From Candidatus Zambryskibacteria bacterium RIFCSPLOWO2_01_FULL_39_39 (GTDB lineage: Bacteria > Patescibacteriota > Minisyncoccia > Phycocordibacterales > WO2-35-19): a stretch of DNA of 64,000 nt. The stretch's first letter is position 1; every line of letters starts with the position of its first letter. The stretch covers positions 25,086 through 89,085 of the forward strand of contig MHWB01000009.1 of NCBI GenBank assembly GCA_001823925.1, read 5' to 3'. Below, one piece after another: positions 20,688-46,427 of this stretch. Below the pieces are notes generated by a model, which was given only the letters and a program-made list of their open reading frames with translations, was not told where the DNA came from and ran no database searches. The position numbers and the translations under genes were made by a program.

Positions 20688-22619
20688 TTAACTCTTTGTC
20701 TCGCTTGGCTCGTCGGAGCTTTCAGCAGAGGTGGCTCCCCCTTTTTCCTCAGGTGGTTTTTGGTCTTCCTTGTCCGACGAAGCTTCAGCGGAGTTGGATG
20801 GCTTTTGTTCTTGTTGGGGATTCTTACTCATATACTCCCCTATTTTTTGAATCTCTTTAGAAAGATTTTCGGTAGCTGTTTTTATTGCTCCGACATCTTC
20901 GCCGTCTTTTATTTTTTTAAGCTCATTTACTTTTTCTTCAACACCCTTTTTGATTTCATCACTTATTTTTCCCTCCGCTTCCTTCAAAGCTTTTTCGGTA
21001 GTGTAGATCAATTGCTCGGCCAAGTTTTTGGTTTCAGCCGCTTCTTTCTTTTTCAGGTCATCTGCGGCATGGGTCTCGGCATCTTTTTGCATCTTTTCTA
21101 TCTCTTCTTTAGAAAGACCCGAAGTGCCTTCTATTTTTATTGATTGCTCTTTGCCGCTTGATTTGTCTTTGGCTTTGACGCTCAATATACCATTGGCGTC
21201 TATATCAAAAGAAACTTCTACTTGAGGCATACCGCGTGGAGATGGAGGAATACCGTCTAAAATAAATCGGCCTAAGGTACGGTTGTCTCCTGCCAAAGGT
21301 CTTTCACCTTGGACGACGTGTATCTCTACGCTAGTTTGATTGTCAGCAGCTGTAGAAAAGACTTGTGATTTGGAAGCTGGGATAGTGGTGTTTCGGTCAA
21401 TGAGTTTGGTGGCCACTCCGCCCATAGTCTCAATACCGAGTGAAAGCGGGATAACGTCCAAAAGCAAAATATCTTTGACATCTCCGGCGATAATACCTCC
21501 TTGGATAGCGGCGCCTAACGCAACTACTTCGTCCGGGTTGATGCTTTTGTTTGGTTCTTTGCCGAAAAACTTTTTTACTTCTTCTATGATTTTCGGCATT
21601 CTGGTCTGACCCCCCACCAATACTATTTCTTCTATTTCGGCCACTTTAAAAGGCGAGCTTTCTATTGCACGTCGGGTGATCTCCATGGCTCTAGCGATAA
21701 ATTCATCAGAGAGCTCTTCTAGTTTGGCGCGGTTCATCTTAATAAGGAGGTGGCGAGGGCCAGAAGAATCGGAAGTGATAAACGGGATGTTTACTTCGGT
21801 ATCTGTGGCGGTGGAGAGCTCAATCTTGGCTTTTTCTGCCGCTTCGTCGAGTCTCTGGAGGGCCAGCGGATCTTTGGTGATGTCAATACCACTTTCCTTT
21901 TTAAATTCAGAGGCCAGGAAGTAGATGATTTTTTGATCAATATCTTTACCGCCTAAGTGTGAGTCACCATCGGTTGACTTAACCTCTACCACATCATCCC
22001 CGACTTCCAAAATAGAAATATCAAAAGTACCACCCCCAAAATCAAAGACGGCGATTTGTTCATTTTTCTTTTTATTAAATCCATAAGCTAAAGCCGCGGC
22101 GGTGGGTTCATTTATAATGCGTAAAACATCAAGGCCCGCGATTTGGCCAGCGTCTTTGGTAGCCTTTCTTTGGGCATCGTTGAAATAAGCGGGCACCGTG
22201 ATAATAGCTTGGCTAATTTTTTCTCCGAGTTTAGCTTCGGCATCGGCTTTGAGTTTCCCAAGTATCATAGCCGAAATTTCTTCCGGTCGGTAAATGTGAT
22301 CGTTCATTTTTACTTGGACACTACCGGTAGTGGAAGCAGAAATTTCAAAAGGCACAGTATCCTTATCTTTTTGGACAGCATCTTCTTTGAAATCATGACC
22401 GATAAATCTCTTGATGCCAAAAACAGTGTTTTGAGGATTGGTGACCGCTTGCCTTCTAGCCAAAAGCCCCACCAATCTTTCGCCTGTTTTAGAAATAGCG
22501 ACAATAGAGGGGGTGGTTCGCGCTCCCTCTGCGTTTTCAATTATTTTTGGATTTCCAGATTCCATCACTGCCACCGCGCAGTTGGTAGTTCCCAAATCTA
22601 TTCCTATGATTTTTGACAT
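20688..22619 (-). CDS. dnaK: molecular chaperone DnaK (Hsp70)
   Basis: 643 aa with [10 protein letters not shown]-like, DLGGGTFD and VLVGG signatures. Confidence 0.95.
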
Positions 22620-22777
22620 ATTGATACGAAAATTATGCGAATAATTTTAAAATTTCAGACCCCACCCCGTCCGATTTACATCGGACTGCCCCTCCCCTTG
22701 TCTAATGTGAGGGGCAAGTGGAATAAAATAATAATGTTTTGCGAATGAATTATACATCTAGTCACATTTTTATACAC

Positions 22778-43523: not shown

Positions 43524-46427
43524 TCAAATTACCAAATTGATTATTTTATTTGGTACAAAAATTATCTTTCTAACCTCTTTTCCATCTAGCCACTTTTGGA
43601 CCTCTGGTAGAGATAAAGCCTTTTTCCTCACCTTATCTTCAGTCGGGTTGGGTTCTGCTTCAAACTGCGCCCTTATCTTGCCGTTTATTTGAACGACTAT
43701 TATTACTTTTTCTTCCTTTATTTTTGAAAGGTCTGCTTCTGGCCATTTTTCGAGATGGATGGAGTCTTTGTGGCCCATCTTGCTCCAGATCTCTTCTGTG
43801 ATATGTGGTGCAAAAGGTGCCAAAAGTTTCAAAAATATCTCAAATATGTCAAGGTTGAACCTTGACATACCCATCTCCTTTTCCAGTTCATTTAAGAAAA
43901 TCATCATGGCTGAAATGGCGGTATTGAATTTGTAACTTTCTATATCTTCTGTAACTTTCTTTATTGTCTTATGCAGTAAACTTTTGAGTTTTACTTCGCC
44001 CGTTGTAGTTTTGGCGGAAGCGGGATTTTTATTTGTGTCATTCGTGTTTATTCGTGTATTGGTATCGAGTCTCCACACTCTTTCCAAAAATCTTCTGATA
44101 CCAACAATACCTCCCAAGTCCCACGGATACTGCCCCGTCTCGTTGTAAGGTCCGATGAAAGCTAAATACATTTTTACAGTGTCTGATCCAACTTTTTCTA
44201 CCAGCTCATCGGGGTCTCCTCCATTACCTTTACTCTTACTCATTTTTTGCCCATCTGGACCCAAGATAAGTCCACGGTTCATTCTTTCTCTAAAAGGCTC
44301 TGATTCGTTCACTAGTCCCAAGTCAAAAAGAACTTTGTGGAAAAATCTGGCATACAAAAGATGCATGGTAGTGTGTTCGGCTCCGCCAGAATATCTAGAG
44401 ACCGGCATCCATTTTTTTAACCTGAGTTTATCGAATGGTTCTTTTTTATTTTGAGGATCGCAATATCTAAGAAAATACCAAGAAGAATCTACGAAAGTAT
44501 CCATAGTATCGTATTCAGGAGTCCAGCCTTTACCAAATATTTTCTCCACCCTTTCTTTTAATCCTTTTGAAGTGGCCAAAGGGGACTCTCCTTTTGGATT
44601 AAAGTCCACATCTTCTGGTAAAAGCCACGGTAAGTGCTCCTCTGGGATTTGGTGTGGCTTACCTTCCGGATCATAAACTACGGGTATTGGGCAACCCCAA
44701 TATCTCTGACGACTTAAGAGCCAATCTCTTAATTTATATTTGACCACTTTCTCCCCAAACTTTTCTGTTATTTTTTCTCGTGCTTCTTCGCTTCCCGTTC
44801 CGTCAAATTTTTCTGAATTTACAAGTATTCCTTCTCCAGCATAAGCTTTAGCTGAGATATTTCCGCCACTTATTACTTCAACAATCGACAAATTGTATTT
44901 TTTGGCGAACTCAAAATCGCGCTCATCGTGGGCAGGTACGGCCATGACGGCTCCAGTACCATAATTATTTAACACATAATCAGCTACAAAGACTGGTACT
45001 TCTTCTCCTGTCGCAGGATTTATGGCCGTCACCCCTTCTATTTTTACGCCTGTCTTAACTTTTTTTGCATCAGTCCTCTCTATTTCAGTTTTGCTTTTTG
45101 TCTCTTTTATATATTTTTCTATTTCTGATTTGTTTGTTATTTCTGATTTCTGATTTTTGATTTGTTCTGTAAGCCATGGATGTTCTGGCGCAACAACAAG
45201 ATAAGTTACGCCGAAAAGTGTATCAATACGAGTAGTAAAGACGCTAATCACCCCTCCCAAACCCTCCCCCAAGGGGAGGGCTTTCAAATCCTCGTGTATT
45301 TCTTTTAGAACATTTACGATATTATTTTCAATTTCTTCGTTTTTAAATCGTATAACTTTAAAACCATTTTGTTCAAGTAAATTTGTTCTCTCCTCGTCTC
45401 TTTCTTTTTGGTGGTCGTGTATGTCTCCGTCAACCTCAATTATTAACATTTTTTCTATGCAAACAAAATCTACAATAAATCTACCTATAATCCATTGTCT
45501 TCTAAAACGGTATCCTGTTGCGTCACGTCTTAAACCTTGCCATAAAATATCCTCGGTTTTTGTTGGGGCTTTTCTCATCTCAACTGCTCTGCCGTGGAGT
45601 TCTCTCCAATTTTCTTTATCCGTGGTGTAGAATTTTGGGTCTCCCTCCCCTTGGGGGAGGGCCGGGGTGGGGTGGTTTATTTCAAACTCCACTTCCGCCC
45701 CTTCTGATTTGCCTATCCAATTTCTCTGCGCCTCTTTTATTTGTTCTGGCCACTTCAAATCATCCATATCAGAAAGTAGTCTCTCCGCATAATCAGTGAT
45801 TTTGAAAAACCATTGCTCCAAATCTTTTTGTATAACTTCACTACCACATCTCTCACACTTCCCCGCTATCACCTGTTCGTTGGCTAGCACTGTGTTGCAA
45901 GACGGACACCAGTTGACGCTTGCTTTCTTTTTGTAAGCCAGACCTTTTTTAAAAATTTCCAAAAACAACCACTGTGTCCATTTATAATATTCTGGGTCCG
46001 AAGTAATAACTTTGCGCGACCAATCAAAAGAGTTGCCCATACTTTGGAGTTGTTTCTCCATATAAGCAATATTTTCGTAAGTCCACTTTTTAGGATCTAA
46101 GCCTCTTTTTATTGCGGCATTTTCTGCTGGGAGTCCAAATGCGTCAAAACCGATCGGAAACATTACATTAAAACCTTGCATCCTTTTAGTACGCGCAAAA
46201 ATATCTGGTACAGCAAACGCGTACCAATGGCCGATATGTAAATTGCCAGATGGATAAGGAAACTCTACTAACGCATAAAAATTTCTTCGGCTCGACGAAG
46301 CCTTGGCGGAGTCGGCTGCATCATCTTTGACTTCATAAATCTTATCCTCCTTCCACCTCTTCTGCCACCCCTTTTCTATTTCTTTATGATTATACTTCTC
46401 GCTCATACTAAAACTATAACTCACCAA
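43524..46427 (-). CDS. leuS: leucyl-tRNA synthetase carrying an in-frame DUF559 (Vsr-like endonuclease fold) insertion
   Basis: 967 aa with HIGH (HIGHWYA) and KMSKS motifs and a CP1 editing domain (TTRIDTLFG). About 140 extra residues (aa 252-393) are inserted just before the CP1 domain. Confidence 0.9.
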   Translation of the reverse strand: MVSYSFSMSEKYNHKEIEKGWQKRWKEDKIYEVKDDAADSAKASSSRRNFYALVEFPYPSGNLHIGHWYAFAVPDIFARTKRMQGFNVMFPIGFDAFGLPAENAAIKRGLDPKKWTYENIAYMEKQLQSMGNSFDWSRKVITSDPEYYKWTQWLFLEIFKKGLAYKKKASVNWCPSCNTVLANEQVIAGKCERCGSEVIQKDLEQWFFKITDYAERLLSDMDDLKWPEQIKEAQRNWIGKSEGAEVEFEINHPTPALPQGEGDPKFYTTDKENWRELHGRAVEMRKAPTKTEDILWQGLRRDATGYRFRRQWIIGRFIVDFVCIEKMLIIEVDGDIHDHQKERDEERTNLLEQNGFKVIRFKNEEIENNIVNVLKEIHEDLKALPLGEGLGGVISVFTTRIDTLFGVTYLVVAPEHPWLTEQIKNQKSEITNKSEIEKYIKETKSKTEIERTDAKKVKTGVKIEGVTAINPATGEEVPVFVADYVLNNYGTGAVMAVPAHDERDFEFAKKYNLSIVEVISGGNISAKAYAGEGILVNSEKFDGTGSEEAREKITEKFGEKVVKYKLRDWLLSRQRYWGCPIPVVYDPEGKPHQIPEEHLPWLLPEDVDFNPKGESPLATSKGLKERVEKIFGKGWTPEYDTMDTFVDSSWYFLRYCDPQNKKEPFDKLRLKKWMPVSRYSGGAEHTTMHLLYARFFHKVLFDLGLVNESEPFRERMNRGLILGPDGQKMSKSKGNGGDPDELVEKVGSDTVKMYLAFIGPYNETGQYPWDLGGIVGIRRFLERVWRLDTNTRINTNDTNKNPASAKTTTGEVKLKSLLHKTIKKVTEDIESYKFNTAISAMMIFLNELEKEMGMSRFNLDIFEIFLKLLAPFAPHITEEIWSKMGHKDSIHLEKWPEADLSKIKEEKVIIVVQINGKIRAQFEAEPNPTEDKVRKKALSLPEVQKWLDGKEVRKIIFVPNKIINLVI
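45249..45674 (-). mobile_element. in-frame DUF559 domain insertion within leuS, bounded by 19-bp palindromes
   Basis: Encodes ...RFRRQWIIGRFIVDFVCIEKMLIIEVDGDIHDHQKERDEERTNLLEQNGFKVIRFKNEEI.... The palindromes CCCTCCCC-n3-GGGGAGGG lie at 45262-45280 and 45643-45661, each encoding LP(L/Q)GEG. Confidence 0.55.

What the first reader, a model, noticed from the sequence alone, without database searches (positions are those of the whole stretch)
45249..45674. In-frame DUF559 (Vsr-like endonuclease) domain inserted into leuS, bounded by twin 19-bp palindromes
LeuS is intact except for about 142 extra residues between the catalytic core (…SEGAEVEFEIN) and the CP1 editing domain (ISVFTTRIDT…). The insert has the DUF559 signature (RFRRQ…FIVDFVC…LIIEVDGDIHDH…FKVIRF…), which normally occurs as a stand-alone small endonuclease-like protein. 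Two copies of the palindrome CCCTCCCC-N3-GGGGAGGG (45262-45280 and 45643-45661) delimit it at the DNA level. Each encodes LP(L/Q)GEG, so the element restores the reading frame. No intein splicing motifs (Cys/Ser…HN) are visible, so the domain is presumably retained in the mature synthetase. This looks like a selfish or mobile domain insertion into an essential gene, with a repeat signature reminiscent of a target duplication or recombination site.
Basis: partly seen in the sequence, partly recalled or inferred. Interest (0 to 1): 0.7.

Follow-up and report, generated by a model that had tools for sequence, protein, structure and literature searches.

The report
Mobile nuclease cassette inside leuS
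The leucyl-tRNA synthetase gene carries an in-frame 432-bp cassette, bounded by palindromes and encoding a Vsr-like (DUF559) nuclease, and the same kind of cassette sits unspliced at fixed sites in many essential genes of two bacterial phyla, so it looks like a selfish mobile element that uses neither an intron nor an intein.

Summary
leuS (minus strand, 43524-46427) has an in-frame insert of 144 codons (45246-45677). It matches Pfam DUF559 at E=1e-33 and lies between the catalytic core and the editing domain. The two 19-bp palindromes occur nowhere else in the window. They are exact reverse complements of each other and form the cores of 35-nt terminal inverted repeats, so they are not a target duplication.

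Homologous cassettes occupy the same LeuS loop in Patescibacteria and Bacteroidota (58 of the 80 best genome loci). Others sit at fixed sites in TGT, RecJ, MetH, UvrB, TatD, MnmE, RibD and further proteins, in the cases examined just upstream of a conserved motif. 77 of the 80 loci are embedded in long open frames.

The putative catalytic residues are invariant and dN/dS is 0.05-0.21. The cassette's synonymous divergence is lower than that of its host gene. Its distribution among close LeuS relatives is patchy (8 state changes for 9 carriers), and one Patescibacteria copy groups with Bacteroidota copies. The terminal hairpins covary. Double-hairpin and solo-hairpin derivatives also occur in frame.

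There are no intein or intron features. AlphaFold shows a folded nuclease domain on disordered tethers that are encoded by the hairpins.

Best reading: an unspliced, homing-like mobile nuclease cassette. I found no published description of it.

The parts
43524..46427 (-). leuS (leucyl-tRNA synthetase), the host gene. It is open from a TTG at 46427, but the likely true start is the ATG 7 codons downstream.
   Evidence: ORF. Pfam tRNA-synt_1, editing domain and Anticodon_1. 100% identical to P0020, named 'leucine--tRNA ligase, Candidatus Zambryskibacteria bacterium RIFCSPLOWO2_01_FULL_39_39'. The AF2 model superposes on E. coli LeuRS 5omw with TM 0.85.
45246..45677 (-). The whole inserted cassette: 432 bp, 144 codons, aa 251-394 of the ORF. 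It runs from the outer end of one terminal inverted repeat to the outer end of the other.
   Evidence: 35-nt inverted repeat. Absent from the closest LeuS orthologs P0025 and P0026. Homologous cassettes occur in other host genes.
45643..45677 (-). Left (5' on the coding strand) terminal inverted repeat: AACCACCCCACCCCGG followed by the hairpin CCCTCCCC-CAA-GGGGAGGG (hairpin at 45643-45661). It encodes the N-terminal tether NHPTPALPQGEG.
   Evidence: L-type hairpins covary across 50 distinct copies: 97.8% paired, 64 compensatory cells against 19.2±6.0 in shuffles, and no one-sided changes. pLDDT is 56-63 in the AF2 model.
45246..45283 (-). Right (3') terminal inverted repeat: an extended 11-bp-stem hairpin AAGCCCTCCCC-TTG-GGGGAGGGTTT (45259-45283; 8-bp core at 45262-45280) followed by GGGAGGGGTGATT. 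It encodes the C-terminal tether KALPLGEGLGGVI.
   Evidence: (I5). R-type hairpins covary across 55 distinct copies: 9 of 11 pairs show two-sided changes, 71 compensatory cells against 27.6±6.3 in shuffles. pLDDT is below 50 at aa 386-390.
45285..45596 (-). DUF559 (Vsr-like PD-(D/E)xK) nuclease core, aa 278-381. The putative active-site residues are E292, D320, E331, D333, H337 and D344 in ORF numbering.
   Evidence: Pfam PF04480, E=1e-33. Sequence match to PDB 3HRL, E=1e-17. [quoted passage not shown] These residues are invariant in 23 cassettes from about 15 host families.
45597..45642 (-). N-terminal extension of the nuclease domain (aa 263-277, DPKFYTTDKENWREL). It leads into the first helix and contains the invariant Thr (T18 of the cassette).
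   Evidence: Alignment A2. Secondary structure of the AF2 models.
44760..45245 (-). LeuRS CP1 editing domain, starting at the conserved VFTTR(I/P)DT motif immediately downstream of the cassette.
   Evidence: Pfam PF13603, aa 393-556. Alignment A1.

Best explanation
This is a selfish mobile cassette. It consists of a DUF559 (Vsr-like PD-(D/E)xK) nuclease gene bounded by about 35-nt G/C-rich terminal inverted repeats, each built around a palindromic hairpin. It lives inside conserved housekeeping genes as an in-frame insertion that is never spliced out.

Shown by the data:
- The cassette is translated as part of LeuRS.
- The nuclease folds as a separate domain on two flexible Pro/Gly tethers, which are the translated palindromes.
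- It projects from a variable surface hairpin loop at the start of the editing domain, and the synthetase scaffold stays intact.
- The cassette is under purifying selection and keeps an intact putative active site.
- It is patchily distributed and occupies the same sites in distant phyla.
- It has double-hairpin and solo-hairpin derivatives.

Inferred:
- It spreads mainly by homing. The nuclease, made as a passenger of the host protein, cuts cassette-free alleles near the conserved motif next to the insertion point. Recombinational repair then copies the cassette in. Rare ectopic events seed new host genes.
- The G/C palindromes are free of stop codons in every frame, so an insertion is tolerated whatever frame it lands in.
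- Because they stay perfect DNA palindromes, they are probably also the symmetric sites at which a dimeric nuclease recognises the cassette ends.
- Recombination or deletion between the two hairpins produces the mini and solo forms.
For: Anatomy:
- establish the insert, its frame and its inverted repeats.

Same cassette in other hosts:
- TGT (P0001 and L001, 64% identical, same PTPxPLPKGEG...KALPLGEGLGG ends).
- 46 of the best 149 representative hits are 300 aa or longer, many with an internal match.
- Hosts include RsmI-like methylase, RecJ, TGT, TatD, trehalase, UvrB, UDP-GlcNAc 2-epimerase, MetH, SpoIID, MnmE, RibD and SpoIIE phosphatases. In several of them (TGT, TatD, UDP-GlcNAc 2-epimerase, MetH) the host Pfam domain is split in two.

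Site specificity:
- 77 of 80 species-representative genome loci are embedded in long open frames.
- 58 are LeuS, in both Patescibacteria and Bacteroidota. In nearly all of them the cassette sits just before VFTTRPDT; at least one (L075) is at a second LeuS site.
- The TGT, RecJ, MetH, ACS-like and TsaB-like hosts each have one fixed site, in several of them (TGT, MetH, ACS-like, TsaB-like) directly upstream of a conserved motif.

Selection:
- E42, D70, E81, D83, H87 and D94 (cassette numbering) are invariant.
- omega is 0.05-0.21.

Mobility:
- Cassette pS is 0.43-0.60 against 0.67-0.82 for the host flanks.
- There are 9 carriers among the 120 closest LeuS. The nearest host neighbour of 7 of the 9 lacks the cassette, and Fitch parsimony needs 8 changes.
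- The cassette of a Paceibacterota genome (L040) is closest to Bacteroidota cassettes (69-70% identity, hosts only 50-53%), not to those of its nearest hosts.

Ends:
- Hairpins occur at both ends in 44 of 80 loci and at one end in 25 of 80. Background is 0.04 per 105-nt window.
- The stems covary.
- Left loops are A-rich and right loops T-rich, which marks a true inverted orientation.
- Outer termini ACCCC...GGGGT are shared across host genes.

Derivatives and footprints:
-.

Structure:
-. I-Bth0305I, a proven homing endonuclease, is the second-best fold match.

Exclusions:
- No Rfam family and no Hint domain.
Against: - No nuclease activity, target site or transfer event has been observed. 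Everything here is comparative.
- Cassette identity correlates with host identity overall (Spearman 0.56), so much of the history is vertical or local.
- Host synonymous sites are saturated, which weakens the dS contrast.
- Classical homing needs no terminal inverted repeats. Their strong conservation, and the MITE-like miniatures, fit a transposon-like mechanism better than pure homing.
- No closely related filled and empty allele pair was available to define the exact junction. The empty loops of the nearest relatives (DSKHK) are not simply the filled allele minus the cassette.
- The hairpin alignments were built from sequences chosen for having a stem of at least 7 bp, which inflates the percentage paired.
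- I did not extract distances between the cassette's N and C ends from the AF2 model.
Confidence: 0.62

Rival explanations
1. A transposon rather than a homing element. The DUF559 nuclease acts as the excision or nicking enzyme on its own palindromic inverted repeats. The cassette and its double-hairpin miniatures then move by cut-and-paste or copy-and-paste into A-rich/T-rich loop-coding DNA.
For: - Conserved inverted repeats of about 35 nt, with perfect-palindrome cores and shared outer termini in all host genes.
- MITE-like double-hairpin and solo forms at further sites.
- Tandem extra hairpins.
- At least 15 different host families.
- A stand-alone intergenic copy that also has hairpins (L049).
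- Left flanks are A-rich and right flanks T-rich.
Against: - The cassette encodes no strand-transfer enzyme (DDE, HUH or recombinase), and no target-site duplication was seen.
- Copy number is low: one copy in this 64-kb window.
- The same exact site is used in orthologs of two phyla, and 58 of 80 loci are in one gene. That is what homing predicts, not random transposition.
- The flank composition may simply reflect AT-rich genomes.
Confidence: 0.2
2. A domesticated accessory domain. An old fusion now serves LeuRS (for example nucleic-acid binding near the editing domain), is inherited vertically, and has been lost repeatedly.
For: - Strong purifying selection (omega 0.05-0.21).
- Positive correlation between cassette and host identity.
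- The same loop also hosts an alpha/beta-hydrolase domain in other Patescibacteria LeuS, and a second site hosts NUDIX. So this enzyme does acquire accessory domains in these lineages.
Against: - The same cassette with the same ends sits in unrelated enzymes that share no function.
- 8 state changes for 9 carriers.
- Cassette pS is lower than host pS.
- Cross-phylum incongruence.
- DNA-level conservation of the palindromes has no explanation under selection on the protein alone.
Confidence: 0.1
3. The insert is removed before the mature enzyme forms. Possible routes are an unusual intein, an intron, or translational bypass promoted by long-range pairing of the two inverted repeats in the mRNA.
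For: - The predicted mRNA fold pairs the two 35-nt repeats and loops out the whole insert (MFE -121 kcal/mol, z = -4.97).
- The insert length is a multiple of three.
Against: - No Hint or intein Pfam hit. After the nuclease domain, 144 aa leaves no room for a splicing domain.
- No Rfam intron or ribozyme at E<=1.
- The frame is open and under purifying selection in every copy.
- In most Bacteroidota copies the left and right stems differ, so long-range pairing is not conserved.
- The left hairpin shows no G·U pairs, which argues for a DNA constraint rather than an RNA one.
Confidence: 0.04
4. An assembly or binning artefact, i.e. a chimeric contig.
For: This is a metagenome-assembled genome. 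One related public contig (L001) even starts with Illumina adapter sequence.
Against: - The identical LeuS protein is recorded on 16 contigs from several sources.
- The same architecture appears in dozens of independent assemblies, including cultured isolates (Aequorivita marina, Maribacter spp., Hyunsoonleella ulvae, Psychroserpens sp.).
- The reading frame is perfect across both junctions.
Confidence: 0.01

Closest known systems
EDxHD / Vsr-like homing endonucleases (I-Bth0305I; Dassa et al. 2009, PMC2677866; Taylor et al. 2011, PMC3239194)
   Same: - Same fold. The cassette model matches the I-Bth0305I catalytic domain 3R3P with TM 0.74, rmsd 2.7 Å.
- Same composite putative active-site residues: E42, D70, D83 (the x position), H87 and D94 in cassette numbering, plus the extra acidic residue E81 at the position of Vsr Phe62.
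- Both target conserved sites in housekeeping genes.
   Different: - No sequence-level match to 3R3P. The cassette belongs to DUF559 proper, with 3HRL as its nearest solved relative.
- It has no NUMOD/HTH DNA-binding module.
- EDxHD enzymes sit in group I introns, in inteins, or between split-intein gene halves. This one has no splicing vehicle and has palindromic inverted repeats.
ShiLan domain: an unspliced, actively homing insertion in an actinophage DNA methylase gene with a hidden HNH endonuclease (Arsenault, Gosselin & Gogarten 2025, PMC11855218)
   Same: The insertion reads through in frame with the host gene. It has neither intein nor intron features, it is predicted to loop out of the host protein, and it shows homing-like evolutionary patterns.
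   Different: - In ShiLan the nuclease is an HNH enzyme read in a different frame from its own start codon. Here the nuclease is a DUF559 enzyme translated in the host frame as part of the host protein.
- ShiLan is in phages. This family is in cellular essential genes of two phyla, is bounded by hairpin inverted repeats, and has miniature derivatives.
Rickettsia palindromic elements (RPEs; Ogata et al. 2000, from my own knowledge; cited in PMC1779305 and PMC10969869)
   Same: [quoted passage not shown] They are translated and tolerated at surface positions. The double-hairpin and solo forms found here are close analogues.
   Different: RPEs encode no protein and are about 100-150 bp non-autonomous repeats in one genus. 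Here an autonomous form carrying a nuclease exists, the sites are fixed, and there is no sequence relationship (homology was not tested).
Mobile G+C-rich palindromic clusters and double-hairpin elements of fungal mitochondrial DNA, and in-frame fused free-standing endonuclease ORFs (from my own knowledge: yeast var1 GC clusters; Allomyces DHEs and the atp6-fused ORF; literature list)
   Same: G/C-rich hairpin pairs in AT-rich genomes. They can lie within coding sequence and are associated with mobile endonuclease ORFs.
   Different: Those are organellar and carry LAGLIDADG or GIY-YIG enzymes. The hairpins are not the fixed termini of a nuclease cassette nested inside a host domain.
Inteins
   Same: In-frame selfish insertions at conserved sites of essential genes. 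They often carry a homing endonuclease and are patchily distributed.
   Different: There is no Hint splicing domain and there are no splice-junction residues. The insert is predicted to remain in the mature protein.

Membership tests
DUF559 / Vsr-like PD-(D/E)xK nuclease (Pfam PF04480) | Profile match above the curated threshold | tested here: met
   115.8 bits against a cut-off of 20.6, E=1.1e-33, covering profile positions 4-108 of 109.
DUF559 / Vsr-like PD-(D/E)xK nuclease (Pfam PF04480) | Vsr-like fold | tested here: met
   The AF2 model of the cassette (pLDDT 74.5) matches 3HRL with TM 0.87 and rmsd 2.5 Å, then 3R3P, then 1VSR.
DUF559 / Vsr-like PD-(D/E)xK nuclease (Pfam PF04480) | Catalytic Asp, His and acidic residues present | tested here: met
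   E42, D70, E81, D83, H87 and D94 are invariant in 23 cassettes. The correspondence to Vsr E25, D51, H64, H69 and D97 is taken from PMC3239194. Catalytic activity itself cannot be tested with these tools.
EDxHD homing endonuclease family (I-Bth0305I type) | Sequence membership, an N-terminal NUMOD/HTH DNA-binding region, and residence in an intron or intein | tested here: not met
   No phmmer match to 3R3P at E<=1. The region N-terminal to the core is only about 25 aa. No intron or intein is present. The resemblance is in fold and active site only.
Homing endonuclease gene (functional class) | Same insertion site in orthologs, patchy distribution, and horizontal spread | tested here: met
   Same LeuS loop in two phyla. 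8 changes for 9 carriers. The L040 cassette groups with Bacteroidota cassettes. Cassette pS is lower than host pS.
Homing endonuclease gene (functional class) | Cleavage of the cassette-free allele, followed by copying through repair | not testable with these tools
   This needs biochemistry and a genetic cross.
Intein | Hint domain blocks; Cys/Ser at the N-terminal junction; His-Asn followed by Cys/Ser/Thr at the C-terminal junction | tested here: not met
   No Hint or intein Pfam hit at E<=0.01. The junctions read EIN|HPTP and GGV|ISVF. The insert is too short to hold both a nuclease and a Hint domain.
Group I / group II intron | Ribozyme core detectable; the open frame is not required to continue into the downstream exon | tested here: not met
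   No Rfam match at E<=1 in 44800-46100. The frame is open through both junctions in 77 of 80 loci.
TIR transposon / MITE | Terminal inverted repeats | tested here: met
   35-nt inverted repeat, 86% complementary. Inverted orientation is conserved across the family.
TIR transposon / MITE | Target-site duplication and a transposase (DDE, HUH or serine/tyrosine recombinase) | tested here: not met
   No direct repeat flanks the ends in 20 loci, judged by eye only. The only encoded protein is the DUF559 nuclease.
Rickettsia palindromic elements | Sequence homology to RPE families | not tested
   The comparison is conceptual only: in-frame palindromic insertions.

The most novel reading that the evidence does not exclude
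These cassettes define a previously unrecognised class of prokaryotic mobile element. It is an autonomous nuclease gene that needs no promoter, start codon, intron or intein, because it moves as a translatable domain cassette. Its stop-free palindromic inverted repeats serve both as flexible protein tethers and as the symmetric DNA sites, possibly extruded as hairpins with T·G wobbles, on which its Vsr-like nuclease acts. The class would have autonomous, double-hairpin (MITE-like) and solo forms that shape essential proteins in Patescibacteria and Bacteroidota. It would also assign a function to at least the DUF559 clade studied here.
Probability: 0.4. Interest if true: 0.9.

Novelty: new variant of a known kind. 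Interest (0 to 1): 0.78.

Why it matters
Homing endonuclease genes are thought to survive inside essential genes only by hiding in self-splicing introns or inteins. Here a nuclease gene appears to use a third strategy, which is to stay in the host protein as a tethered extra domain. It does this at scale, across two phyla and more than a dozen housekeeping enzymes.

If confirmed, this would have several consequences:
- It would give a biological role to at least this clade of DUF559, one of the commoner bacterial domains of unknown function (22,207 representative hits).
- It would explain a recurrent source of odd domain architectures and of Pro/Gly-rich in-frame mini-insertions in CPR and Bacteroidota proteins.
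- It would supply an autonomous counterpart for RPE-like coding palindromes.
- It would offer a compact nuclease with natural permissive-site linkers for protein engineering.
- It would matter for annotation. These LeuS, TGT, RecJ and other proteins are currently named as ordinary enzymes.

Tried and rejected
- Intein: rejected. There is no Hint hit, the junction residues are wrong, and the insert is too small.
- Intron or ribozyme: rejected. Rfam found nothing at E<=1.
- Target-site duplication: rejected. The repeats are inverted, internal to the element, and shared across host genes.
- Palindromes as a common genomic motif: rejected.
- Other copies in the window: none found by tblastn.
- Phage carriage: only 2 weak relatives in IMG/VR.
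- The first related-loci run, with the 23-sequence alignment, failed because no stretch was conserved enough. It was repeated with 7 sequences.
- The metagenome scan for the exact right end gave only 5 hits, one full TGT cassette and four short hairpin-only contexts, and added little.
- G-quadruplex reading of the G-runs in the repeats: the motif is canonical in this copy but not conserved in Bacteroidota copies (my reading of the sequences), so I did not pursue it.
- A common target motif across host genes: I saw only A-rich left flanks and T-rich right flanks, which may be base composition.
- Literature searches (DUF559, COG2852, EDxHD, Vsr-like plus mobile, Patescibacteria plus LeuRS insertion, intein-less in-frame homing) found no description of this element. 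The ShiLan paper is the nearest.


Full report
**1. The observation**

The minus strand of 43524-46427 is one open frame of 967 codons. The public protein P0020 is 100% identical to it and is named leucine--tRNA ligase of Candidatus Zambryskibacteria bacterium RIFCSPLOWO2_01_FULL_39_39, a member of the Patescibacteria (CPR). P0020 is recorded on 16 contigs.

Pfam places the class I synthetase core at aa 21-238, DUF559 (PF04480) at aa 278-381 (E=1.1e-33) and the LeuRS editing domain at aa 393-556. No intein or Hint family matched.

The palindrome CCCTCCCCNNNGGGGAGGG occurs only at 45262-45280 and 45643-45661, where none is expected by chance. The two copies are exact reverse complements of each other (loops CAA and TTG). 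They are the cores of a 35-nt inverted repeat at 45246-45280 and 45643-45677. The inserted unit is therefore 45246-45677, which is 432 bp or 144 codons. The window holds no other DUF559 copy and no other hairpin of this type.

**2. The insert is absent from the nearest orthologs**

I aligned 17 LeuS proteins. The cassette is present at exactly the same position in nine of them, whose LeuS identity to the window ranges from 56% to 81%. It is absent from P0025 and P0026 (about 80% identical), which have a 5-aa loop there (EFEIK-DSKHK-INVFTTR). The syntenic empty locus L003 and the filled locus L002 confirm this at the DNA level.

Among the 120 closest LeuS proteins, nine carry the cassette. For seven of the nine, the nearest host relative lacks it. 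Parsimony on a host-only tree needs eight state changes.

Some empty loops look like footprints: GLGGV(I) in P0028 and P0033, NPTPNPSPWQGE in P0078, and LPDGEMG in P0030.

**3. The same cassette sits in other genes**

A search with the 144-aa cassette found P0001, a tRNA-guanine transglycosylase fragment. It carries a 64%-identical cassette with the same ends (SPTPNPLPKGEG...KALPLGEGLGGA), immediately before the TGT motif LFGIVQGG. The hairpins and outer termini are the same at the DNA level.

An exhaustive search of 1.84 billion representative proteins gave 22,207 DUF559 hits. 46 of the best 149 are 300 aa or longer, many with an internal match that includes the tethers. Pfam scans of 20 of these identified the hosts:
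- LeuS, including a second insertion site
- TGT, RecJ, an RsmI-like methylase, TatD and trehalase
- a sugar epimerase, UvrB and UDP-GlcNAc 2-epimerase
- the MetH activation domain, SpoIID, MnmE and RibD
- SpoIIE phosphatases

In several of them (TGT, TatD, UDP-GlcNAc 2-epimerase, MetH) the host domain is split in two by the insert.

**4. Genome loci**

A scan of one genome per species found 412 relatives, and I examined the best 80. They come from Patescibacteria and from many Bacteroidota, including cultured isolates.
- In 77 of the 80 loci the match lies inside a long open frame, with tens to hundreds of open codons on both sides.
- 58 are LeuS. In both phyla the cassette sits in the same loop, just upstream of VFTTRPDT.
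- TGT, RecJ, MetH, an acetyl-CoA-synthetase-like protein (site before VFWCTADIGW) and a TsaB-like protein each have one fixed site, seen in two or three genomes.
- A second LeuS site lies before MPGWAGSSWYF.

Insertion next to a strongly conserved motif of a housekeeping gene is the habit of homing endonucleases and inteins. That last statement rests on general knowledge of those elements.

**5. The ends are part of the element and are conserved as DNA palindromes**

Using a strict definition of a hairpin, both ends have one in 44 of 80 loci and one end has one in 25 of 80. The background rate is 0.04 per 105-nt window.
- Left hairpins are CCCTYYCC-N3-GGRRAGGG, preceded by CCCC-NN.
- Right hairpins are AAGYCCTYCCC-N3-GGGRAGGRTTT, followed by GG(N)GGGGT.
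- The outer termini ACCCC...GGGGT are shared among LeuS, TGT, RecJ, ACS-like and TsaB-like hosts.
- Left loops are A-rich and right loops T-rich, so the two ends are true inverted copies.

The stems vary by compensatory changes. In the right hairpin, 9 of 11 pairs show two-sided changes, with 71 compensatory cells against 27.6±6.3 in shuffles. In the left hairpin, 97.8% of cells are paired, with 64 compensatory cells against 19.2±6.0 and not a single one-sided (G·U) change. These sequences were chosen for having a stem, so the percentage paired is inflated. The covariation and the absence of wobble intermediates are not affected by that choice.

The peptides these hairpins encode differ between copies (LPQGEG, LSKGKG, PSxGGG, PPSGARG), which means different reading frames are used. 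Selection therefore acts on the nucleic-acid palindrome. The lack of G·U pairs points to DNA rather than RNA. One such possibility is a symmetric site for a dimeric nuclease. That reading is an inference.

**6. Derivatives**

The same LeuS genes contain related in-frame elements at other sites:
- Double-hairpin miniatures, with the left and right hairpins 30-60 nt apart. An example is L040, NPSPTLPKGKGVEFKVLPSGEDLGGV.
- Solo right hairpins, such as EVLPFGEDLGGD before KMSKS in five Flavobacteriia, and SPLLGRGGGGEV at the second LeuS site, where full cassettes sit in other genomes.

So there are autonomous, miniature and solo forms, as in transposon and MITE families.

**7. Selection and age**

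Across 23 cassettes from about 15 host families, E42, D70, E81, D83, H87 and D94 are invariant (cassette numbering). By the correspondence given for I-Bth0305I and Vsr (PMC3239194), these are the composite active-site residues.

Nei-Gojobori estimates give omega of 0.05-0.21 for the cassette. Its synonymous difference (pS 0.43-0.60) is lower than that of the flanking leuS codons (0.67-0.82) in every pair. The host values are near saturation, so this contrast is qualitative.

The cassette of a Paceibacterota genome (L040) is most similar to Bacteroidota cassettes (69-70% identity, with hosts only 50-53% identical), not to those of its closest hosts (61-62% cassette identity, hosts 67-68% identical). 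It also carries the Bacteroidota-type right hairpin. Overall, cassette and host identities are still correlated (Spearman 0.56).

Together these results indicate an active, constrained nuclease gene that has moved between lineages more recently than the hosts diverged, against a largely local or vertical background.

**8. Structure**

AlphaFold2 on the whole protein gives mean pLDDT 87.6 and pTM 0.77. The nuclease core (aa 271-383) is confident, at 87-95 in most 10-residue blocks. The two hairpin-encoded stretches are not (56-63, and below 50 at aa 386-390). The scaffold superposes on E. coli LeuRS (5omw) with TM 0.85.

The cassette modelled alone matches the DUF559 structure 3HRL (TM 0.87), then the catalytic domain of the homing endonuclease I-Bth0305I (TM 0.74, E=1e-4), then Vsr. 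By sequence only 3HRL is hit.

From the alignment with E. coli LeuRS, and from my own knowledge of that enzyme, the insertion point corresponds to the variable loop of the beta-hairpin that precedes the threonine-rich editing motif. That is a surface position.

**9. What it is not**

- No Rfam family matches the region.
- The predicted mRNA fold pairs the two inverted repeats. That pairing is not conserved where the left and right stems differ.
- The open, selected frame argues that the cassette is translated.
- An assembly artefact is excluded by the many independent assemblies and isolates.

**10. Interpretation**

The best-supported reading is a selfish, mobile, in-frame nuclease cassette that persists unspliced in permissive loops next to conserved motifs.
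- Homing (cutting of empty alleles followed by repair) best explains the fixed sites across phyla, the patchiness and the young synonymous age.
- The conserved inverted repeats and the miniatures suggest that the nuclease also recognises the cassette's own ends. A transposon-like mechanism is therefore the main rival, or possibly a complement.
- Domestication is unlikely, given the unrelated hosts.

**11. Comparison with what is known**

The nearest known systems are listed here.
- The EDxHD (Vsr-like) homing endonucleases share the fold and the putative active-site residues. They have a different vehicle and are not the same sequence family.
- The ShiLan domain of actinophage methylases (PMC11855218) is also an unspliced homing insertion. 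Its nuclease is an out-of-frame HNH enzyme.
- Rickettsia palindromic elements are in-frame coding palindromes with no encoded protein.
- Mitochondrial GC clusters and double-hairpin elements are a further analogue.

Eight of the nine full-text searches were aimed at finding a prior description; none found DUF559 cassettes with hairpin inverted repeats nested in essential genes. The held library lacks most subscription-journal papers, so prior description elsewhere cannot be excluded.

Noticed in passing
Related proteins P0023, P0024, P0028, P0030, P0077, P0084, P0107 and many others (alignment A1, columns about 660-830); not in the window's LeuS: A NUDIX domain (PF00293) is inserted in frame inside the LeuRS editing domain, after KYNLPIKEVI, in a large fraction of Patescibacteria LeuS proteins. 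Sometimes it occurs together with the DUF559 cassette.
   Followed up: no
Related proteins P0087, P0098, P0103, P0104, P0133, P0135, P0139 (alignment A1, columns 280-520): The same LeuS loop that holds the DUF559 cassette holds an alpha/beta-hydrolase domain (PF12697, PF00561, PF06821) in other Patescibacteria. So this loop is a general hotspot for domain insertion.
   Followed up: partly
P0039, P0041, P0045 (LeuS loop); P0028 and P0042 (C-terminal region, alignment A1 columns 1120-1150): A different in-frame mini-insertion, PQPPLNLRGG(AERSEAGEL), recurs at several positions in Patescibacteria LeuS. Its peptide suggests a palindromic DNA sequence. It may be another family of coding palindromic elements.
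   Followed up: no
window 22650-22760 (intergenic, upstream of dnaK, which ends at 22619 on the minus strand): The stretch ACCCCACCCCG-TCCGATTTACATCGGA-CTGCCCCTCCCCTTG...GAGGGGC contains C-runs like the outer part of the cassette's inverted repeat, plus two small hairpins. This could be a decayed end or a coincidence.
   Followed up: partly
L001 / L006, positions 1-50 and 740-765 (public contig CAYQIR010000050.1): The contig starts with Illumina adapter sequence (GTGACTGGAGTTCAGACGTGTGCTCTTCCGATCT). Its TGT gene is broken by a stop shortly after the cassette, which may be an assembly error or a pseudogene. The MAG is labelled Saccharibacteria, yet its LeuS is 74% identical to the Zambryskibacteria one.
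   Followed up: no
window 45246-45280 and 45643-45677: Each inverted repeat contains four G-runs on one strand (GGGGGAGGGTTTGGGAGGGG, and GGGGGAGGGCCGGGGTGGGG on the opposite strand at the other end). This is a canonical G-quadruplex motif. It is not conserved in Bacteroidota copies.
   Followed up: partly
Right-end hairpins of L004-L083 (alignment A4, columns 6/26, 11/21, 12/20): The right hairpin often carries T·G or G·T wobble positions. G·T is the commonest state at the ninth stem pair (29 of 55), even though a synonymous change would make it G-C. The left hairpin has none. This is curious given that Vsr enzymes recognise T:G mismatches.
   Followed up: partly
L049 (Patescibacteria MAG JBAZWO01), positions 2440-2930: This is a stand-alone, intergenic DUF559 gene of the same clade, and it is also flanked by the G/C hairpins. 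The hairpin-bounded cassette therefore exists outside host reading frames too.
   Followed up: no
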